This document shows positions 11,125-35,359 of a stretch of 35,359 bases of DNA, piece after piece; positions within the stretch are counted from its first letter, which is position 1, and the number at the start of each line of letters is the position of its first letter. Position numbers and translations under genes: made by a program. The DNA lies in NCBI RefSeq assembly GCF_003334305.1, contig NZ_QOWS01000034.1. The stretch is one strand, 5' to 3'. The notes under the pieces were generated by a model. That model did no database searches. It had not been told where the DNA came from and saw only the letters and a list, made by a program, of their open reading frames with translations. Source of the DNA: Escherichia coli (GTDB taxonomy: Bacteria; Pseudomonadota; Gammaproteobacteria; Enterobacterales; Enterobacteriaceae).

Positions 11125-11607
11125 TTACTGTACACGATCCTGCCATTTACTCATTGCATTCGTACCGGCTAACGTATGCTCCCAGGAAATATCTTCATAA
11201 ATAAAGGCAATTCTCTCCTGTGGTTCCAGTTCTTTTTCCAGGACAGCATGCGGTGTGACAAAATCAATACTTGATATTCGGGCTTTTGACAGATTTATTT
11301 TATAATAAGGCTGGTAAATACCCGCTTTACTGGTTCGGTAGAGTATAAATTCACATATTGCCATTTTTTCATTGTCACTAAGTGCTTTTGCCAGCAATGG
11401 TGAGGATTTATCAACCGGTTTGGTGATAATTAATTCATGATGATTGACATTTTGACTTCTTGAGATGGAATGCATTAACGCATAAACCATGATCTGATCT
11501 TTATGTTCTGGCTGCGCTTTGTTTCCGACAGAATCAAGCGTTGAGCAACCTGCTGAAATTAGCCCTTGTGTCTCTCCACTCAAAGATAAATAACTTATAT
11601 TTGCCAT
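11125..11607 (-). CDS. Hcp-family protein (second, orphan hcp outside the hcp-vgrG operon)
   Basis: 160-aa ORF. Shares several spaced motifs with the Hcp at 31693..32211: Y-S-GxTQG-I-AG, DSVGN, KPxDKSSPLL versus KPFIF...AVPLM, WEH near the C-terminus. Confidence 0.7.
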   Translation of the reverse strand: MANISYLSLSGETQGLISAGCSTLDSVGNKAQPEHKDQIMVYALMHSISRSQNVNHHELIITKPVDKSSPLLAKALSDNEKMAICEFILYRTSKAGIYQPYYKINLSKARISSIDFVTPHAVLEKELEPQERIAFIYEDISWEHTLAGTNAMSKWQDRVQ

Positions 11608-11630
11608 GATAATCTCCTTTAATTAAATAA

Positions 11631-12983
11631 TTATTTTTCGGCCGTGGTACCGGTTGCCGCCTCTGGCATGACGTTATTCTTCAGCAGCAGCCAGCGGCTT
11701 AACACGCCTTCGAGTCGCTCATTAATTTGTTTTTCCAGCGCATCTGTATTCTGCTTCTGCGCACGGGCATCATGGTACTGCGTCAACAGAGACTCAACGG
11801 GTGTTTCCTGCCCCAGTCCCCGCTCCGCCTGCCAGATGACATTTTTGATATAGGAAAGGGTTAGTCCCTCTTTCTCGCGCTGCATCACTAGATCTGCAAA
11901 AGCATGTAAGTCCTGGCGGGTCTGCAACCAGCCACGCAACTGCGGGCTACTCTGTGCGCGGGTTTTGAGTGCCTCATTCCATTGTGTCGAGGCCTGTTGC
12001 TGTTGCAGGCTTTCCGGCCAGCGACTGTCGGCAACACGCATCATCTGCATCCCGGTTTCCAGCGGCTGTACCGGGGAGGTATCAAGAAGTTGTTGCAGCC
12101 TGCGCTCATAGTTTTCGAGTTCAGGTGAGGCCATCCACACCGTTGCTGCGCCCTGAGCGGTGTCGTTAACCTGTAACAGTTGCTGCTGCACCGGATAGAC
12201 CTGCCACCACCACAATGCTGAGGCGACAGCCACTGAACAGGCGATCCCTGCGATAAACCCTCTTACCGTACTGCCTTGATTTATCACACTGGCCTGTGGG
12301 GGATTCTCTGTCAGACTGCGAACTTCCACTTTCATCTCAGGCAGGCCGGGCAGGGGAGGCACTACCGCTTCTGGTGTGGAAGATGCCTGTGTTTCCGGGG
12401 CATAAATCAGCGTTCTGACCGTGGTCTGTGCGGCGTTCTCAGTGTTACTCTTCAGCTGGGGTCCAAGCCGTTTACGCGTGTTCTGCATAAAATAGAGCAG
12501 ATTCTCCACGCGCGGAACGCGCTTCAGTTCCACCTGCTGGAGCTTATCGCAGATAAGCTGCAATGCCCGCTCTGTGCGGTAGATCAGTGGTAGGTCGGAT
12601 TCCGCAAAGGAGATTTGCTGACGCAGAATATTGCCGGTTCGGGAGTTAAACCAGTCCAGCATTTCAGTACGCGCCGGGCCGCCCTGCGGCCAGAACTTAT
12701 CCCAGTCGTGGCTTACCATTGCCGCCAGCAGTTCCGCACCTTCGCAGAATCCCGCCAGTCCCTGTGTCCGTGTCCGGGCAAGCGTATAGTAGGTGGCGGT
12801 GTGTAAATCCACACCGTTGGCTTTAAAAATCGCCAGCGCCAGCGACTCCACCAGTTTCCAGTTCAGCTCAGGCTGTGACGGGTGGCTGGCTTTGTTTATT
12901 TCCTCGCGGATGGCGCTGAATTCCGGCAGCCCGCGCGGGTCACTGCCGGTAACGATAGTTTGTGTCAGTACGTTACTATTCAT
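11631..12983 (-). CDS. T6SS accessory membrane protein with ImpA_N-like N-terminal domain (VasL-like)
   Basis: N-terminal region resembles the ImpA-N/TssA family. Central hydrophobic segment (FIAGIACSVAVASALWWW). Start trimmed to the ATG at 12981..12983, which has a GGAGG ribosome-binding site and sits 10 bp after the tssM stop; the track ORF over-extends into tssM. Confidence 0.55.
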   Translation of the reverse strand: MNSNVLTQTIVTGSDPRGLPEFSAIREEINKASHPSQPELNWKLVESLALAIFKANGVDLHTATYYTLARTRTQGLAGFCEGAELLAAMVSHDWDKFWPQGGPARTEMLDWFNSRTGNILRQQISFAESDLPLIYRTERALQLICDKLQQVELKRVPRVENLLYFMQNTRKRLGPQLKSNTENAAQTTVRTLIYAPETQASSTPEAVVPPLPGLPEMKVEVRSLTENPPQASVINQGSTVRGFIAGIACSVAVASALWWWQVYPVQQQLLQVNDTAQGAATVWMASPELENYERRLQQLLDTSPVQPLETGMQMMRVADSRWPESLQQQQASTQWNEALKTRAQSSPQLRGWLQTRQDLHAFADLVMQREKEGLTLSYIKNVIWQAERGLGQETPVESLLTQYHDARAQKQNTDALEKQINERLEGVLSRWLLLKNNVMPEAATGTTAEK

Positions 12984-34562: not shown

Positions 34563-34637
34563 GTCAGGTGCAAAAAATTAAAACGGAACTGGTGCAGTGA
34601 CCAGATAAACCATATTAAAAGCAGAAGGAATTGATTC

Positions 34638-35359
34638 ATGGGCGGAAAACCGGCGGCGCGGCAGGGTGATATGACCCGCAAGGGACTGGATATTGTGCAG
34701 GGTTCAGCGGGGGTGCTGATAGGTGCGCCGACGGGAGTGGCCTGTTCGGTATGTCCGGGAGGGATTACCTATGCTAACCCGGTGAACCCGCTGCTGGGTG
34801 CGAAGGTGCTGCCGGGCGAGACGGACCTTGCGCTGCCCGGCCCGCTGCCGTTTATTCTTTCCCGCGCCTACAGCAGCTACCGGACCAGAACACCCGCGCC
34901 GGTGGGGGTGTTTGGTCCCGGCTGGAAAGCGCCCTTCGATATCCGCTTACAGATACGCGATGAAGGCCTGATACTCAACGACAACGGCGGCAGGAGCATT
35001 CACTTTGAGCCGCTGTTTCCCGGCGAGATAAGCTACAGCCGCAGCGAGTCACTCTGGCTGGCGCGGGGCGGAGTAGCGGCGCAGCACAGTTCGCAGCCGC
35101 TAAGCGCGCTCTGGCAGGTGCTGCCGGAAGATGTTCGCCTGAGTCCGCATGTGTACCTGGCGACAAACAGCCTTCAGGGGCCGTGGTGGATACTCAGCTG
35201 GCCGGAGCGGGTGCCGGGGGCGGACGAGGTGCTGCCGCCTCCGCCGCCCGCATACCGGGTGCTGACGGGGGTGGTGGACGGCTTCGGGCGGACGCTGACT
35301 TTCCACCGGGCAGCTAAGGGTGACGTGGCGGGCGCGGTGACGGGGGTGACGGACGGCGC
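34638..35359 (+). CDS. Rhs-family polymorphic toxin, N-terminal PAAR-like region (partial; continues beyond the window)
   Basis: Starts MGGKPAARQGDMTRKGLDIVQGSAGVLIGAPTGVACSVCPGG, closely matching the conserved N-terminus of E. coli Rhs core proteins as recalled. Begins 75 bp after vgrG. Open to the end of the window. Confidence 0.85.
   Translation, partial: MGGKPAARQGDMTRKGLDIVQGSAGVLIGAPTGVACSVCPGGITYANPVNPLLGAKVLPGETDLALPGPLPFILSRAYSSYRTRTPAPVGVFGPGWKAPFDIRLQIRDEGLILNDNGGRSIHFEPLFPGEISYSRSESLWLARGGVAAQHSSQPLSALWQVLPEDVRLSPHVYLATNSLQGPWWILSWPERVPGADEVLPPPPPAYRVLTGVVDGFGRTLTFHRAAKGDVAGAVTGVTDG

What the first reader, a model, noticed from the sequence alone, without database searches (positions are those of the whole stretch)
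11125..35359. Complete T6SS cluster at the aspV tRNA-Asp locus, with no integrase in view
All 13 core T6SS genes are present and apparently intact: tssA through tssM, with hcp, clpV and vgrG. Minus-strand genes are tightly packed with several 4-bp start/stop overlaps, consistent with translational coupling. A divergent hcp-vgrG-rhs operon follows. The cluster lies a few kb downstream of aspV, beside core replication genes, but without a recognisable integrase or IS element in the window. This suggests an old, stabilised island. It is a known type of system but sets the context for the other findings.
Basis: partly seen in the sequence, partly recalled or inferred. Interest (0 to 1): 0.45.

Follow-up and report, generated by a model that had tools for sequence, protein, structure and literature searches.

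The report
Known E. coli aspV T6SS cluster
This is the well-described, complete type VI secretion gene cluster that about half of E. coli strains carry next to the aspV tRNA gene; it is intact here, but it is ordinary and already in the literature.

Summary
All 13 core T6SS genes (tssA to tssM, including hcp, clpV and vgrG) are present, full length and free of internal stops. Each scores above NCBIfam's curated cut-off. TagH, VasI and a VasL/TagA-like protein are also present. The window differs by 20 SNPs and no indels from E. coli TUM1887.

The locus is already described: LF82 PAI I, the 37-kb EHEC island, and "T6SS-2" at tRNA-Asp. At least 80% of the core is found in 2031 of 5426 complete E. 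coli genomes.

- Only two 4-bp overlaps exist, plus one 37-bp overlap.
- The unit does not start at 11125. The orphan hcp is followed by a Tme-family membrane-disrupting effector (full-length YafU, 10167-11081) and YkfM (9678-10157), its predicted immunity protein. A terminator-like hairpin lies at 9552-9577.
- tssM most likely starts at GTG 16518.
- The 74-codon ORF between tssB and tssC is a neutrally evolving tssC fragment.

There is no integrase and no tRNA-derived repeat anywhere between aspV and yafV (39.9 kb in TUM1887). Three ISAs1 pseudogenes lie just past the window.

"Old" is supported, because a Salmonella assembly has a syntenic cluster at the same site. "Stabilised" is not. K-12 is a 37.4-kb deletion remnant, about 955 genomes keep fragments, and a second allele only 68-91% identical occupies the same site.

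The parts
8349..8425 (+). aspV tRNA-Asp(GUC), the landmark at the left edge of the variable region. A terminator-like hairpin follows at 8449-8483.
   Evidence: ARAGORN, Rfam, terminator scan.
8756..9541 (+). yafT, a lipoprotein gene. It is the first gene after aspV in both E. coli T6SS variants and in Salmonella. It diverges with the island (81.6% aa identity to the B2 variant, against about 99% for the flanking genes).
   Evidence: RefSeq annotation; PF25851 YafT on the Salmonella counterpart; identities.
9552..9577 (-). Terminator-like hairpin (10-bp stem, 7 G-C pairs) at the convergent yafT/ykfM junction. It is the likely end of the long minus-strand transcription unit.
   Evidence: This is a consensus match only; the total count in the region is not above chance.
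9678..10157 (-). ykfM, a 159-aa multi-pass membrane protein and the predicted Tmi immunity protein for the adjacent Tme effector.
   Evidence: It is 51% identical (E 5e-48) to the Salmonella protein in the same position, which carries PF06836 DUF1240, and 24% identical to the Rahnella one. It is listed as the downstream partner in Supplementary Data 5 of PMC7046647. Pfam itself gives no hit on YkfM.
10167..11081 (-). Full-length YafU (304 aa), a Tme-family (type VI membrane-disrupting effector) candidate. It has a DVAK motif at residue 209 followed by Gly-rich hydrophobic segments.
   Evidence: The near-identical genome's protein WP_000908057.1 is listed as Tme-containing (domain 122-277, E 3e-36) in PMC7046647 Supplementary Data 5. 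There is no Pfam or NCBIfam hit. The Hcp / Tme-like / DUF1240 triad is conserved in Rahnella and Salmonella. Motif found.
11125..11607 (-). Second, low-GC hcp (tssD, 160 aa), only 29% identical to the main Hcp. It is the likely carrier for Tme.
   Evidence: TIGR03344, 203 bits against a cut-off of 58.9; comparison with the main Hcp; GC 0.385.
11631..12983 (-). VasL-domain protein resembling TssA and TagA (ImpA_N plus VasL); an accessory gene.
   Evidence: Only the N-terminal part matches TssA models, below their cut-offs. RefSeq calls it a 'VasL domain-containing protein'. The Salmonella orthologue carries PF06812 and PF12486.
12994..16518 (-). tssM (IcmF-like membrane-complex subunit, Walker A GPAGSGKT). 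The start is most likely GTG 16518 (1174 aa), not the CTG at 16428 annotated in RefSeq.
   Evidence: TIGR03348, 945 bits. AGGAG lies 5 nt upstream of the GTG, and the 20-residue N-terminal extension is conserved in M1/5 and Salmonella.
16537..17952 (-). tssA
   Evidence: TIGR03362, 496 bits against a cut-off of 230, full length.
17957..18700 (-). vasI (accessory gene); overlaps the tssH stop by 4 bp.
   Evidence: TIGR03360, 263 bits; junction.
18697..21456 (-). tssH/clpV AAA+ ATPase, with both Walker A and both Walker B motifs intact.
   Evidence: TIGR03345, 1120 bits against a cut-off of 885; motifs.
21465..22226 (-). tssL (DotU family); RefSeq labels it icmH.
   Evidence: TIGR03349, 216 bits; annotation.
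22231..23562 (-). tssK, baseplate subunit.
   Evidence: TIGR03353, 456 bits.
23565..24089 (-). tssJ, outer-membrane lipoprotein (lipobox LTGC at residue 16).
   Evidence: TIGR03352, 134 bits; lipobox.
24086..25366 (-). tagH, FHA-domain accessory protein; 4-bp overlap with tssJ. No partner kinase or phosphatase is present in the locus.
   Evidence: TIGR03354, 344 bits; junction; annotation.
25391..26473 (-). tssG, baseplate subunit; 37-bp overlap with tssF.
   Evidence: TIGR03347, 350 bits; junction.
26437..28287 (-). tssF, baseplate subunit.
   Evidence: TIGR03359, 559 bits.
28291..28704 (-). tssE, baseplate subunit (gp25-like).
   Evidence: TIGR03357, 116 bits.
28711..30186 (-). tssC, large sheath subunit.
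   Evidence: TIGR03355, 703 bits.
30237..30461 (-). 74-codon ORF, a relic of a tssC 5' fragment. It is not under purifying selection and is absent from the B2-type variant.
   Evidence: 34% identity to TssC residues 50-102. dN/dS is 0.9-1.5, against 0.02-0.46 for the neighbouring genes. The ORF sits in the same slot in E. albertii. In M1/5 the tssB-tssC gap is 22 bp.
30496..30996 (-). tssB, small sheath subunit; first gene of the minus-strand unit.
   Evidence: TIGR03358, 169 bits.
30997..31692 (.). 696-bp AT-rich (GC 0.33) divergent intergenic region between tssB and hcp. It is the presumed promoter region and a likely H-NS target.
   Evidence: Promoter-like matches are not above chance. H-NS repression was shown for the EHEC counterpart (PMC5363993).
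31693..32211 (+). Main hcp (tssD, 172 aa).
   Evidence: TIGR03344, 207 bits.
32220..32251 (+). Perfect 14-bp hairpin followed by a U-run just after hcp; terminator or attenuator-like.
   Evidence: fold gives dG -28 kcal/mol and z -5.5.
32421..34562 (+). vgrG (tssI, 713 aa).
   Evidence: TIGR03361, 626 bits.
34638..35359 (+). 5' end of an Rhs core protein gene, cut by the window end. The N-terminus has a PAAR-like motif (KPAARQGD) and then DUF6531.
   Evidence: NF041261 positions 1-240 of 1261; translation; Pfam DUF6531 E 5e-19 and PAAR_motif only E 0.16; PDB Tse5 and Rhs hits. The full 1411-aa gene plus a small downstream ORF is present in TUM1887.

Best explanation
The region is an intact copy of the chromosomal E. 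coli type VI secretion system that sits between aspV and yafV. It is called 'T6SS-2' in the Journet and Cascales scheme, PAI I in LF82, and the 37-kb island in EHEC.

Shown by sequence: one long minus-strand unit, tssB-(tssC relic)-tssC-E-F-G-tagH-tssJ-K-L-clpV-vasI-tssA-tssM-vasL-hcp-tme-ykfM. It runs from 30996 down to about 9552. A 696-bp AT-rich region separates it from a divergent hcp / vgrG-rhs unit.

Inferred from established T6SS biology:
- TssJLM forms the envelope complex.
- TssEFGK plus VgrG forms the baseplate and spike.
- TssA primes polymerisation of the Hcp tube and the TssBC sheath.
- The VasL/TagA-like protein acts at the distal end.
- Contraction fires Hcp, VgrG and cargo into neighbouring cells, and ClpV recycles the sheath.

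Inferred cargo:
- An Rhs toxin with a PAAR-like N-terminus rides on VgrG. Its toxin tip lies beyond the window.
- A Tme-type membrane-disrupting effector is probably carried by the adjacent low-GC Hcp and neutralised by YkfM.

Expression is probably silenced by H-NS under laboratory conditions, as shown for the EHEC cluster.

The locus has no mobility genes of its own. It changes through homologous replacement, Rhs- and ISAs1-associated rearrangement, and deletion.
For: - All 13 core genes have full-length matches above curated cut-offs.
- There are no internal stops, and the gene junctions are tight.
- Catalytic and lipobox motifs are intact.
- The window has 20 SNPs and no indels against TUM1887, where RefSeq marks no pseudogene in the cluster.
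- 2031 genomes carry at least 80% of the core at about 96-100% identity, including O157:H7 at 96.7%.
- The EHEC cluster at aspV secreted Hcp and was repressed by H-NS (PMC5363993).
- The literature places the T6SS-2 organisation at tRNA-Asp (PMC8715443; PMC10711316; PMC2941450).
- Tme/Tmi: the exact protein accessions are listed in PMC7046647 Supplementary Data 5, and the Hcp / Tme-like / DUF1240 triad is conserved in Rahnella and Salmonella.
- No integrase or tRNA-derived repeat is present.
Against: - Function was not tested here. Nothing shows that this strain expresses or fires the system.
- The EHEC evidence comes from a related cluster, not an identical one.
- The promoter-like and terminator-like counts are not above chance.
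- The PAAR assignment of the Rhs N-terminus is weak (Pfam E 0.16).
- YkfM itself has no Pfam DUF1240 hit.
- No E. coli Tme has been tested experimentally, as far as the searched library shows.
- The Rhs toxin and the right end of the island lie outside the window.
Confidence: 0.92

Rival explanations
1. This is a classical tRNA-integrated pathogenicity island: a recently acquired, integrase-driven mobile element that inserted into aspV and could excise again.
For: It lies next to a tRNA gene, has atypical and mosaic GC, and is present in only some strains. [quoted passage not shown]
Against: No integrase is annotated anywhere between aspV and yafV in the near-identical genome. No copy of the tRNA 3' end is found (25-mer with up to 3 mismatches), and no shared 12-mer other than one chance hit. 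aspV is intact. The same synteny occurs in Salmonella. 'Empty' K-12 is a deletion remnant, not a naive attachment site.
Confidence: 0.04
2. This is an ancient, vertically inherited locus that is now a fixed and stable part of the chromosome.
For: A syntenic orthologous cluster sits at dnaQ-aspV-yafT in a Salmonella assembly. Its nucleotide divergence (75-81%) is close to that of the flanking core genes (80-84%). The locus has no mobility genes.
Against: Within E. coli a second allele, only 68-91% identical, occupies the same site although the flanks are 97-98% identical. That allele also carries different cargo (DUF4123-effector-PAAR instead of Rhs, and no Tme/YkfM). 1860 genomes have nothing and about 955 have fragments. 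K-12 lost 37.4 kb. ISAs1 and rhs repeats lie at the far end. Copies on plasmids exist (PMC10711316). According to PMC2907695, the aspV-linked SPI-20 is confined to one Salmonella subspecies, so exchange between the genera is not excluded.
Confidence: 0.3
3. The cluster looks intact but is a silent or decaying remnant with no function in this strain.
For: EHEC transcription of the cluster was about 35-fold below the genome average in vitro. Many lineages have deleted parts of the locus. A tssC fragment is decaying between tssB and tssC. The second rhs and the ISAs1 copies downstream are pseudogenes in TUM1887.
Against: All 13 core genes, three accessory genes and both cargo modules are full length. 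Neighbouring core genes show strong purifying selection (dN/dS 0.02-0.3 against E. albertii). The EHEC homologue became active when hns was deleted.
Confidence: 0.1
4. The genes belong to a different contractile or secretion machine: an extracellular contractile injection system, a phage tail, or a type IVB system.
For: RefSeq names tssL 'type IVB secretion system protein IcmH/DotU'. TssM also hits the IcmF_IVB model. TssE and VgrG are related to phage baseplate proteins.
Against: The IcmF_IVB score is 190 bits against a cut-off of 1000, whereas the T6SS TssM model scores 945 against a cut-off of 388. The T6SS-specific parts (TssJ, TssA, TssK, ClpV/TssH equivalog, TssB/C) all pass their cut-offs. 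No tail-fibre, tape-measure or Dot/Icm genes are annotated.
Confidence: 0.01

Closest known systems
E. coli 'T6SS-2' at tRNA-Asp (Journet and Cascales scheme), ECC-1470 / ST410-A type
   Same: Same chromosomal site. Same gene set, with two tssA-like and two hcp genes, an FHA protein, and vgrG followed by rhs (PMC8715443; PMC10711316). 2031 complete genomes carry it at about 96-100% identity.
   Different: Nothing of substance differs. This copy has 20 SNPs against strain TUM1887. I did not compare it directly with ECC-1470, so assignment to that variant rather than the APEC-O1 variant rests on its divergence from the B2-type strain M1/5.
EHEC O157:H7 EDL933 37-kb T6SS island at aspV (z0243-z0275)
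   Same: Associated with aspV and organised like the V. cholerae vas cluster. O157:H7 genomes match at 96.7% identity over 97% of the core. It was shown to secrete Hcp and to be repressed by H-NS (PMC5363993).
   Different: In O157:H7 the match starts 550 bp into the query, so the orphan hcp end of the cluster differs. The reported EHEC effector KatN is encoded elsewhere in that genome.
B2-type variant at the same site (strain M1/5; presumably the APEC-O1 type; LF82 PAI I)
   Same: Same flanks and the same order of core genes, from hcp-vasL-tssM through to tssB, then the divergent hcp-vgrG.
   Different: Core genes are only 68-91% identical in nucleotides (46-94% in amino acids). It has no Tme/YkfM pair and no tssC relic. 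Its cargo is vgrG-DUF4123-effector-PAAR instead of rhs.
Salmonella enterica aspV-linked T6SS (SPI-20-like)
   Same: Syntenic: dnaQ-aspV-yafT-DUF1240-tme-hcp-vasL-tssM-tssA-vasI-clpV. No flanking direct repeats were reported for SPI-20 (PMC2907695).
   Different: Identity is 51-85% in amino acids. It carries an extra DUF1240 copy and extra small ORFs. I did not establish that this assembly belongs to subspecies arizonae.
Vibrio parahaemolyticus Tme1/Tmi1 and Tme2/Tmi2 (Fridman et al. 2020)
   Same: Tme domain with DxxK followed by a transmembrane helix; the gene lies downstream of a T6SS gene (hcp); it is followed within 9 bp by a multi-pass membrane protein linked to DUF1240.
   Different: The E. 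coli pair has only been predicted, not tested. YkfM does not reach Pfam's DUF1240 model. Carriage by Hcp is inferred from gene adjacency only.

Membership tests
Type VI secretion system (canonical, proteobacterial) | Membrane complex TssJ, TssL and TssM | tested here: met
   TIGR03352 134 bits, TIGR03349 216 bits and TIGR03348 945 bits, all full length. Lipobox and Walker A motifs are present.
Type VI secretion system (canonical, proteobacterial) | Baseplate TssE, TssF, TssG and TssK | tested here: met
   TIGR03357, TIGR03359, TIGR03347 and TIGR03353 all score above their cut-offs.
Type VI secretion system (canonical, proteobacterial) | Contractile sheath TssB/TssC, Hcp tube and VgrG spike | tested here: met
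   TIGR03358, TIGR03355, TIGR03344 (twice) and TIGR03361.
Type VI secretion system (canonical, proteobacterial) | TssA and the ClpV/TssH recycling ATPase | tested here: met
   TIGR03362 496 bits and TIGR03345 1120 bits. Both Walker A/B pairs are intact.
Type VI secretion system (canonical, proteobacterial) | PAAR tip protein | tested here: inconclusive
   There is no stand-alone PAAR gene in the window. The Rhs N-terminus reads KPAARQGD, but Pfam PAAR_motif reaches only E 0.16 over 28 residues.
Type VI secretion system (canonical, proteobacterial) | Hcp/VgrG secretion and contact-dependent activity | not testable with these tools
   This needs culture supernatants and competition assays. It was shown only for the related EHEC cluster.
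E. coli T6SS-2 (Journet and Cascales) | Location at tRNA-Asp (aspV), with the characteristic gene order and rhs downstream of vgrG | tested here: met
   compared with the descriptions in PMC8715443 and PMC10711316.
E. coli T6SS-2 (Journet and Cascales) | Phylogenetic placement of the core proteins in the corresponding T6SS subtype clade | not tested
   No tree was built. Any subtype label (i1, i2 and so on) would come from memory only.
Integrase-type tRNA-linked genomic island | Next to a tRNA gene, atypical composition, variable presence among strains | tested here: met
Integrase-type tRNA-linked genomic island | Site-specific integrase at the tRNA-proximal end | tested here: not met
   None is annotated from aspV to yafV in the near-identical genome. 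The ORFs next to aspV are yafT, ykfM and tme.
Integrase-type tRNA-linked genomic island | Direct repeat of the tRNA 3' end at the far junction | tested here: not met
   A 25-mer with up to 3 mismatches finds only aspU and aspV. No shared 12-mer is found apart from one chance hit.
Tme/Tmi effector-immunity pair | Tme domain (DxxK followed by a transmembrane helix) | tested here: met
   WP_000908057.1 is listed with a Tme domain at 122-277, E 3e-36. DVAK at residue 209 is followed by a Gly-rich hydrophobic stretch. No independent profile was available to me.
Tme/Tmi effector-immunity pair | Immediately downstream DUF1240 or DUF1240-like membrane protein | tested here: inconclusive
   YkfM starts 9 bp downstream. 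Pfam gives no hit on YkfM itself. YkfM is 51% identical (E 5e-48) to the Salmonella DUF1240 protein in the same slot.
Tme/Tmi effector-immunity pair | T6SS-dependent secretion, periplasmic toxicity, and rescue by the immunity protein | not testable with these tools
   This is experimental. No paper in the library links ykfM to T6SS.

The most novel reading that the evidence does not exclude
The low-GC hcp-tme-ykfM tail of the cluster may be a working effector and immunity module carried by Hcp. If so, the ykfM gene retained in T6SS-less strains such as K-12, next to a truncated yafU, would be an orphan immunity gene. It would protect those strains from attack by E. coli kin that carry this T6SS. 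This would give a function to two long-unexplained K-12 'y-genes'. A second point: the two alleles at aspV are about as divergent from each other as either is from the Salmonella cluster, which would fit long-term maintenance of alternative weapon sets at one site.
Probability: 0.45. Interest if true: 0.35.

Novelty: already known. Interest (0 to 1): 0.12.

Why it matters
As a finding it mainly gives context.

The small additions are useful for annotation but do not change understanding of T6SS biology. They are:
- the corrected left boundary, which now includes tme and ykfM;
- the probable tssM start at GTG 16518;
- the tssC relic between tssB and tssC;
- the hairpin after hcp;
- K-12 as a 37.4-kb deletion that ends in an ISAs1 copy.

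The one experimentally attractive lead is to test YafU/YkfM as a Tme/Tmi pair, and ykfM as an orphan immunity gene in K-12.

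Tried and rejected
- Search for a tRNA-derived direct repeat across the whole island and 26 kb beyond it: none found.
- The 74-aa ORF between tssB and tssC as a possible new small T6SS component. It is confined to Escherichia and keeps its slot in E. albertii. However, its dN/dS is 0.9-1.5 and it resembles TssC residues 50-102. I rejected it as a functional gene and read it as a tssC relic.
- Pfam and NCBIfam on the 304-aa protein and Pfam on YkfM: no hits. The identification came from genomic context and the literature instead.
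- Rfam over the whole window: only the two tRNAs.
- Promoter and terminator scans: the counts are at chance level. Only the hairpins at 32220-32251 and 9552-9577 are notable, because of their position and strength.
- A paper search with the terms 'ykfM' and 'yafU' alone returned unrelated papers.
- The Journet and Cascales review could not be retrieved, so its classification is cited second-hand.
- Other machines (eCIS, phage tail, type IVB) were considered and rejected on model scores.

Full report
**What the window is.** The window starts at the end of rrnH, with aspU at 125-201. It then runs through dkgB, yafC, yafD, yafE, mltD, gloB, yafS, rnhA and dnaQ to aspV at 8349-8425. It differs from the E. 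coli TUM1887 chromosome by 20 substitutions and no indels over all 35,359 bases. The RefSeq annotation of that genome can therefore be transferred directly.

**Check of the observation.** I translated every candidate gene and scanned it against NCBIfam. TssA, B, C, D (twice), E, F, G, H, I, J, K, L and M each match the T6SS model over essentially its whole length. All score above the curated cut-off, for example:
- TssM 945 bits against a cut-off of 388
- ClpV 1120 against 885
- TssC 703 against 272
- VgrG 626 against 186

None has an internal stop. The Walker motifs of ClpV and TssM and the TssJ lipobox are intact. TagH (FHA), VasI and a VasL-domain protein resembling TssA and TagA are also present.

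The rival models score far below their cut-offs (IcmF of type IVB 190 against 1000; ClpB 678 against 1232). The genes therefore do not belong to another machine.

Packing is tight. However, only two junctions are 4-bp ATGA overlaps (clpV/vasI and tagH/tssJ). One junction is a 37-bp overlap (tssF/tssG), and the rest are gaps of 2-50 bp.

The single large gap, between tssA and tssM, comes from the annotated start. A GTG at 16518 is preceded by AGGAG. It opens a 20-residue extension that is conserved at the protein level in a divergent E. coli allele and in Salmonella. With that start the gap is 18 bp.

On the other strand, hcp (31693-32211), vgrG (32421-34562) and the first 240 codons of an Rhs core protein (from 34638) follow a 696-bp region with GC 0.33. 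A perfect 14-bp hairpin with a U-run sits 9 bp after hcp (dG -28 kcal/mol, z -5.5). Read-through into vgrG-rhs may therefore be attenuated.

**The left boundary is not 11125.** Downstream of the orphan hcp lie a 304-aa ORF (10167-11081) and ykfM (9678-10157). They are separated by gaps of 43 and 9 bp, and a terminator-like hairpin follows at 9552-9577.

The 304-aa protein has no Pfam or NCBIfam hit and few homologues (19 clusters). The homologues keep a telling context:
- In Rahnella bruchi an isolated triad is found: 304-aa protein, DUF1240 protein and Hcp.
- In Salmonella the order is tssM-vasL-hcp-307-aa protein-DUF1240.

DUF1240 is the immunity family (Tmi) of the Tme membrane-disrupting T6SS effectors (PMC7046647). 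The supplementary table of that paper lists three accessions annotated in TUM1887: WP_000908057.1 as Tme-containing (residues 122-277, E 3e-36), Hcp WP_001284199.1 upstream of it, and YkfM WP_001236649.1 downstream.

The protein carries DVAK at residue 209, followed by Gly-rich hydrophobic segments. YkfM itself gets no Pfam hit. It is nevertheless 51% identical (E 5e-48) to the Salmonella DUF1240 protein in the same position.

This three-gene tail has GC 0.31-0.39, against 0.56 for the core. It therefore looks like a cargo module added separately. It has been predicted before but, within the searched library, never tested in E. coli.

**Island boundaries, integrase and repeats.** In TUM1887 the variable region runs 39.9 kb from aspV to yafV. 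Beyond the window it holds:
- the rest of rhs, with a small downstream ORF;
- an ISAs1 pseudogene;
- a second, frameshifted rhs with ydcD;
- two more ISAs1 pseudogenes next to yafV.

No integrase is annotated. The last 25 nt of aspV recur only in aspU, even allowing 3 mismatches. No 12-mer from aspV plus 60 nt downstream recurs, apart from one chance match.

K-12 is not an empty site. It aligns with the window from yafS through aspV, yafT, ykfM and the 3' part of the Tme gene, up to position 10523. It then jumps, with 5 bp of shared sequence, into the ISAs1 copy beside yafV. K-12's yafU and yafF pseudogenes are therefore the two ends of a 37.4-kb deletion.

**How common and how stable.** Across the 5426 complete E. 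coli genomes:

| Number of genomes | What they carry |
|---|---|
| 2031 | At least 80% of 11125-31000, at about 96-100% identity |
| About 580 | Match at only about 80% identity |
| About 955 | Fragments only |
| 1860 | No match |
| 2 places | On plasmids |

The 80% class is a second allele at the same site. In strain M1/5 the flanking genes are 97-98% identical in nucleotides to the window, but the T6SS genes are only 68-91% identical. That allele also lacks the Tme/YkfM pair and the tssC relic. Its cargo is vgrG-DUF4123-effector-PAAR instead of rhs.

A Salmonella enterica assembly has the same synteny at dnaQ-aspV-yafT. Its T6SS genes are 75-81% identical in nucleotides, against 80-84% for the flanking core genes.

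The locus is therefore plausibly old and has no mobility genes of its own. It is not stable, however. It is a site of allelic replacement, cargo swapping and repeated deletion. Others have documented the same for ST410 (PMC10711316) and for the mutual exclusion of two T6SS-2 variants at tRNA-Asp (PMC8715443).

**Comparison with what is known.** The locus has been described several times:
- as PAI I at aspV in LF82 and most ExPEC (PMC2941450);
- as the 37-kb island associated with aspV in EHEC EDL933, which secretes Hcp once H-NS is removed (PMC5363993);
- as the T6SS-2 organisation in the Journet and Cascales scheme.

I could not read that review itself, and I did not build a phylogeny, so I give no subtype label. 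The mechanism I propose is the standard T6SS firing cycle, inferred from gene content. H-NS silencing through the AT-rich divergent region is inferred from the EHEC work.

**A side lead that failed.** The 74-codon ORF between tssB and tssC is annotated as hypothetical. It occurs only in Escherichia and keeps its position in E. albertii. It is 34% identical to TssC residues 50-102. It evolves with dN/dS of 0.9-1.5, while tssB, tssC, tssE and hcp show 0.02-0.46 in the same comparisons. It is best read as a decaying fragment of a tssC 5' end.

**Verdict.**
- 'Old' is plausible. 'Stabilised' is not supported.
- The finding is already known and of low interest in itself.
- The only lead worth an experiment is the predicted Tme/YkfM pair, together with the idea that K-12's ykfM is an orphan immunity gene.

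Noticed in passing
window 9678-11081 (minus strand): Full-length YafU (304 aa) and YkfM lie directly downstream of the orphan hcp. They form a predicted Tme/Tmi (membrane-disrupting effector and immunity) pair, listed only in a supplementary table of PMC7046647. K-12 keeps ykfM and a 3' fragment of yafU, so ykfM may be an orphan immunity gene there.
   Followed up: yes
window 30237-30461 (minus strand): The 74-codon ORF between tssB and tssC resembles TssC residues 50-102 and evolves neutrally (dN/dS 0.9-1.5). It is a tssC relic, absent from the B2-type variant of the cluster.
   Followed up: yes
window 16428-16518 (minus strand): RefSeq starts tssM at a CTG (16428) in TUM1887 and at the ATG equivalent to 16458 in M1/5. 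A GTG at 16518 with an AGGAG Shine-Dalgarno sequence opens a 20-residue extension conserved in M1/5 and Salmonella. It is the more likely start.
   Followed up: yes
window 32220-32251 (plus strand): A perfect 14-bp hairpin plus U-run lies 9 bp after the hcp stop (dG -28 kcal/mol, z -5.5). It may be a terminator or attenuator that sets the ratio of Hcp to VgrG and Rhs. Its conservation in other alleles was not checked.
   Followed up: partly
window 8490-8740 (aspV-yafT intergenic region): This AT-rich spacer (GC 0.28) is nearly identical between the window and the B2 strain M1/5. It is much more diverged in K-12, even though K-12's yafT coding sequence is about 99% identical to the window. This points to a small recombination patch.
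   Followed up: no
window 24086-25366 and the whole locus: TagH (FHA domain) is present, but no Ser/Thr kinase or phosphatase (PpkA/PppA type) and no sigma-54 activator (VasH type) is annotated anywhere between aspV and yafV. How firing is triggered is therefore not evident from the locus.
   Followed up: no
L001 38639-48001 and L002 26364-36001 (TUM1887, beyond the window end): The far end of the island holds a complete rhs with a small downstream ORF, a second frameshifted rhs with ydcD, and three ISAs1 (H-repeat) transposase pseudogenes. The last ISAs1 copy abuts yafV and is the right-hand breakpoint of the K-12 deletion.
   Followed up: partly
window 21465-22226: RefSeq names this tssL 'type IVB secretion system protein IcmH/DotU'. 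The context and the TIGR03349 score show it is the T6SS TssL. It has no C-terminal peptidoglycan-binding extension, and no TagL-like gene is annotated in the locus.
   Followed up: no
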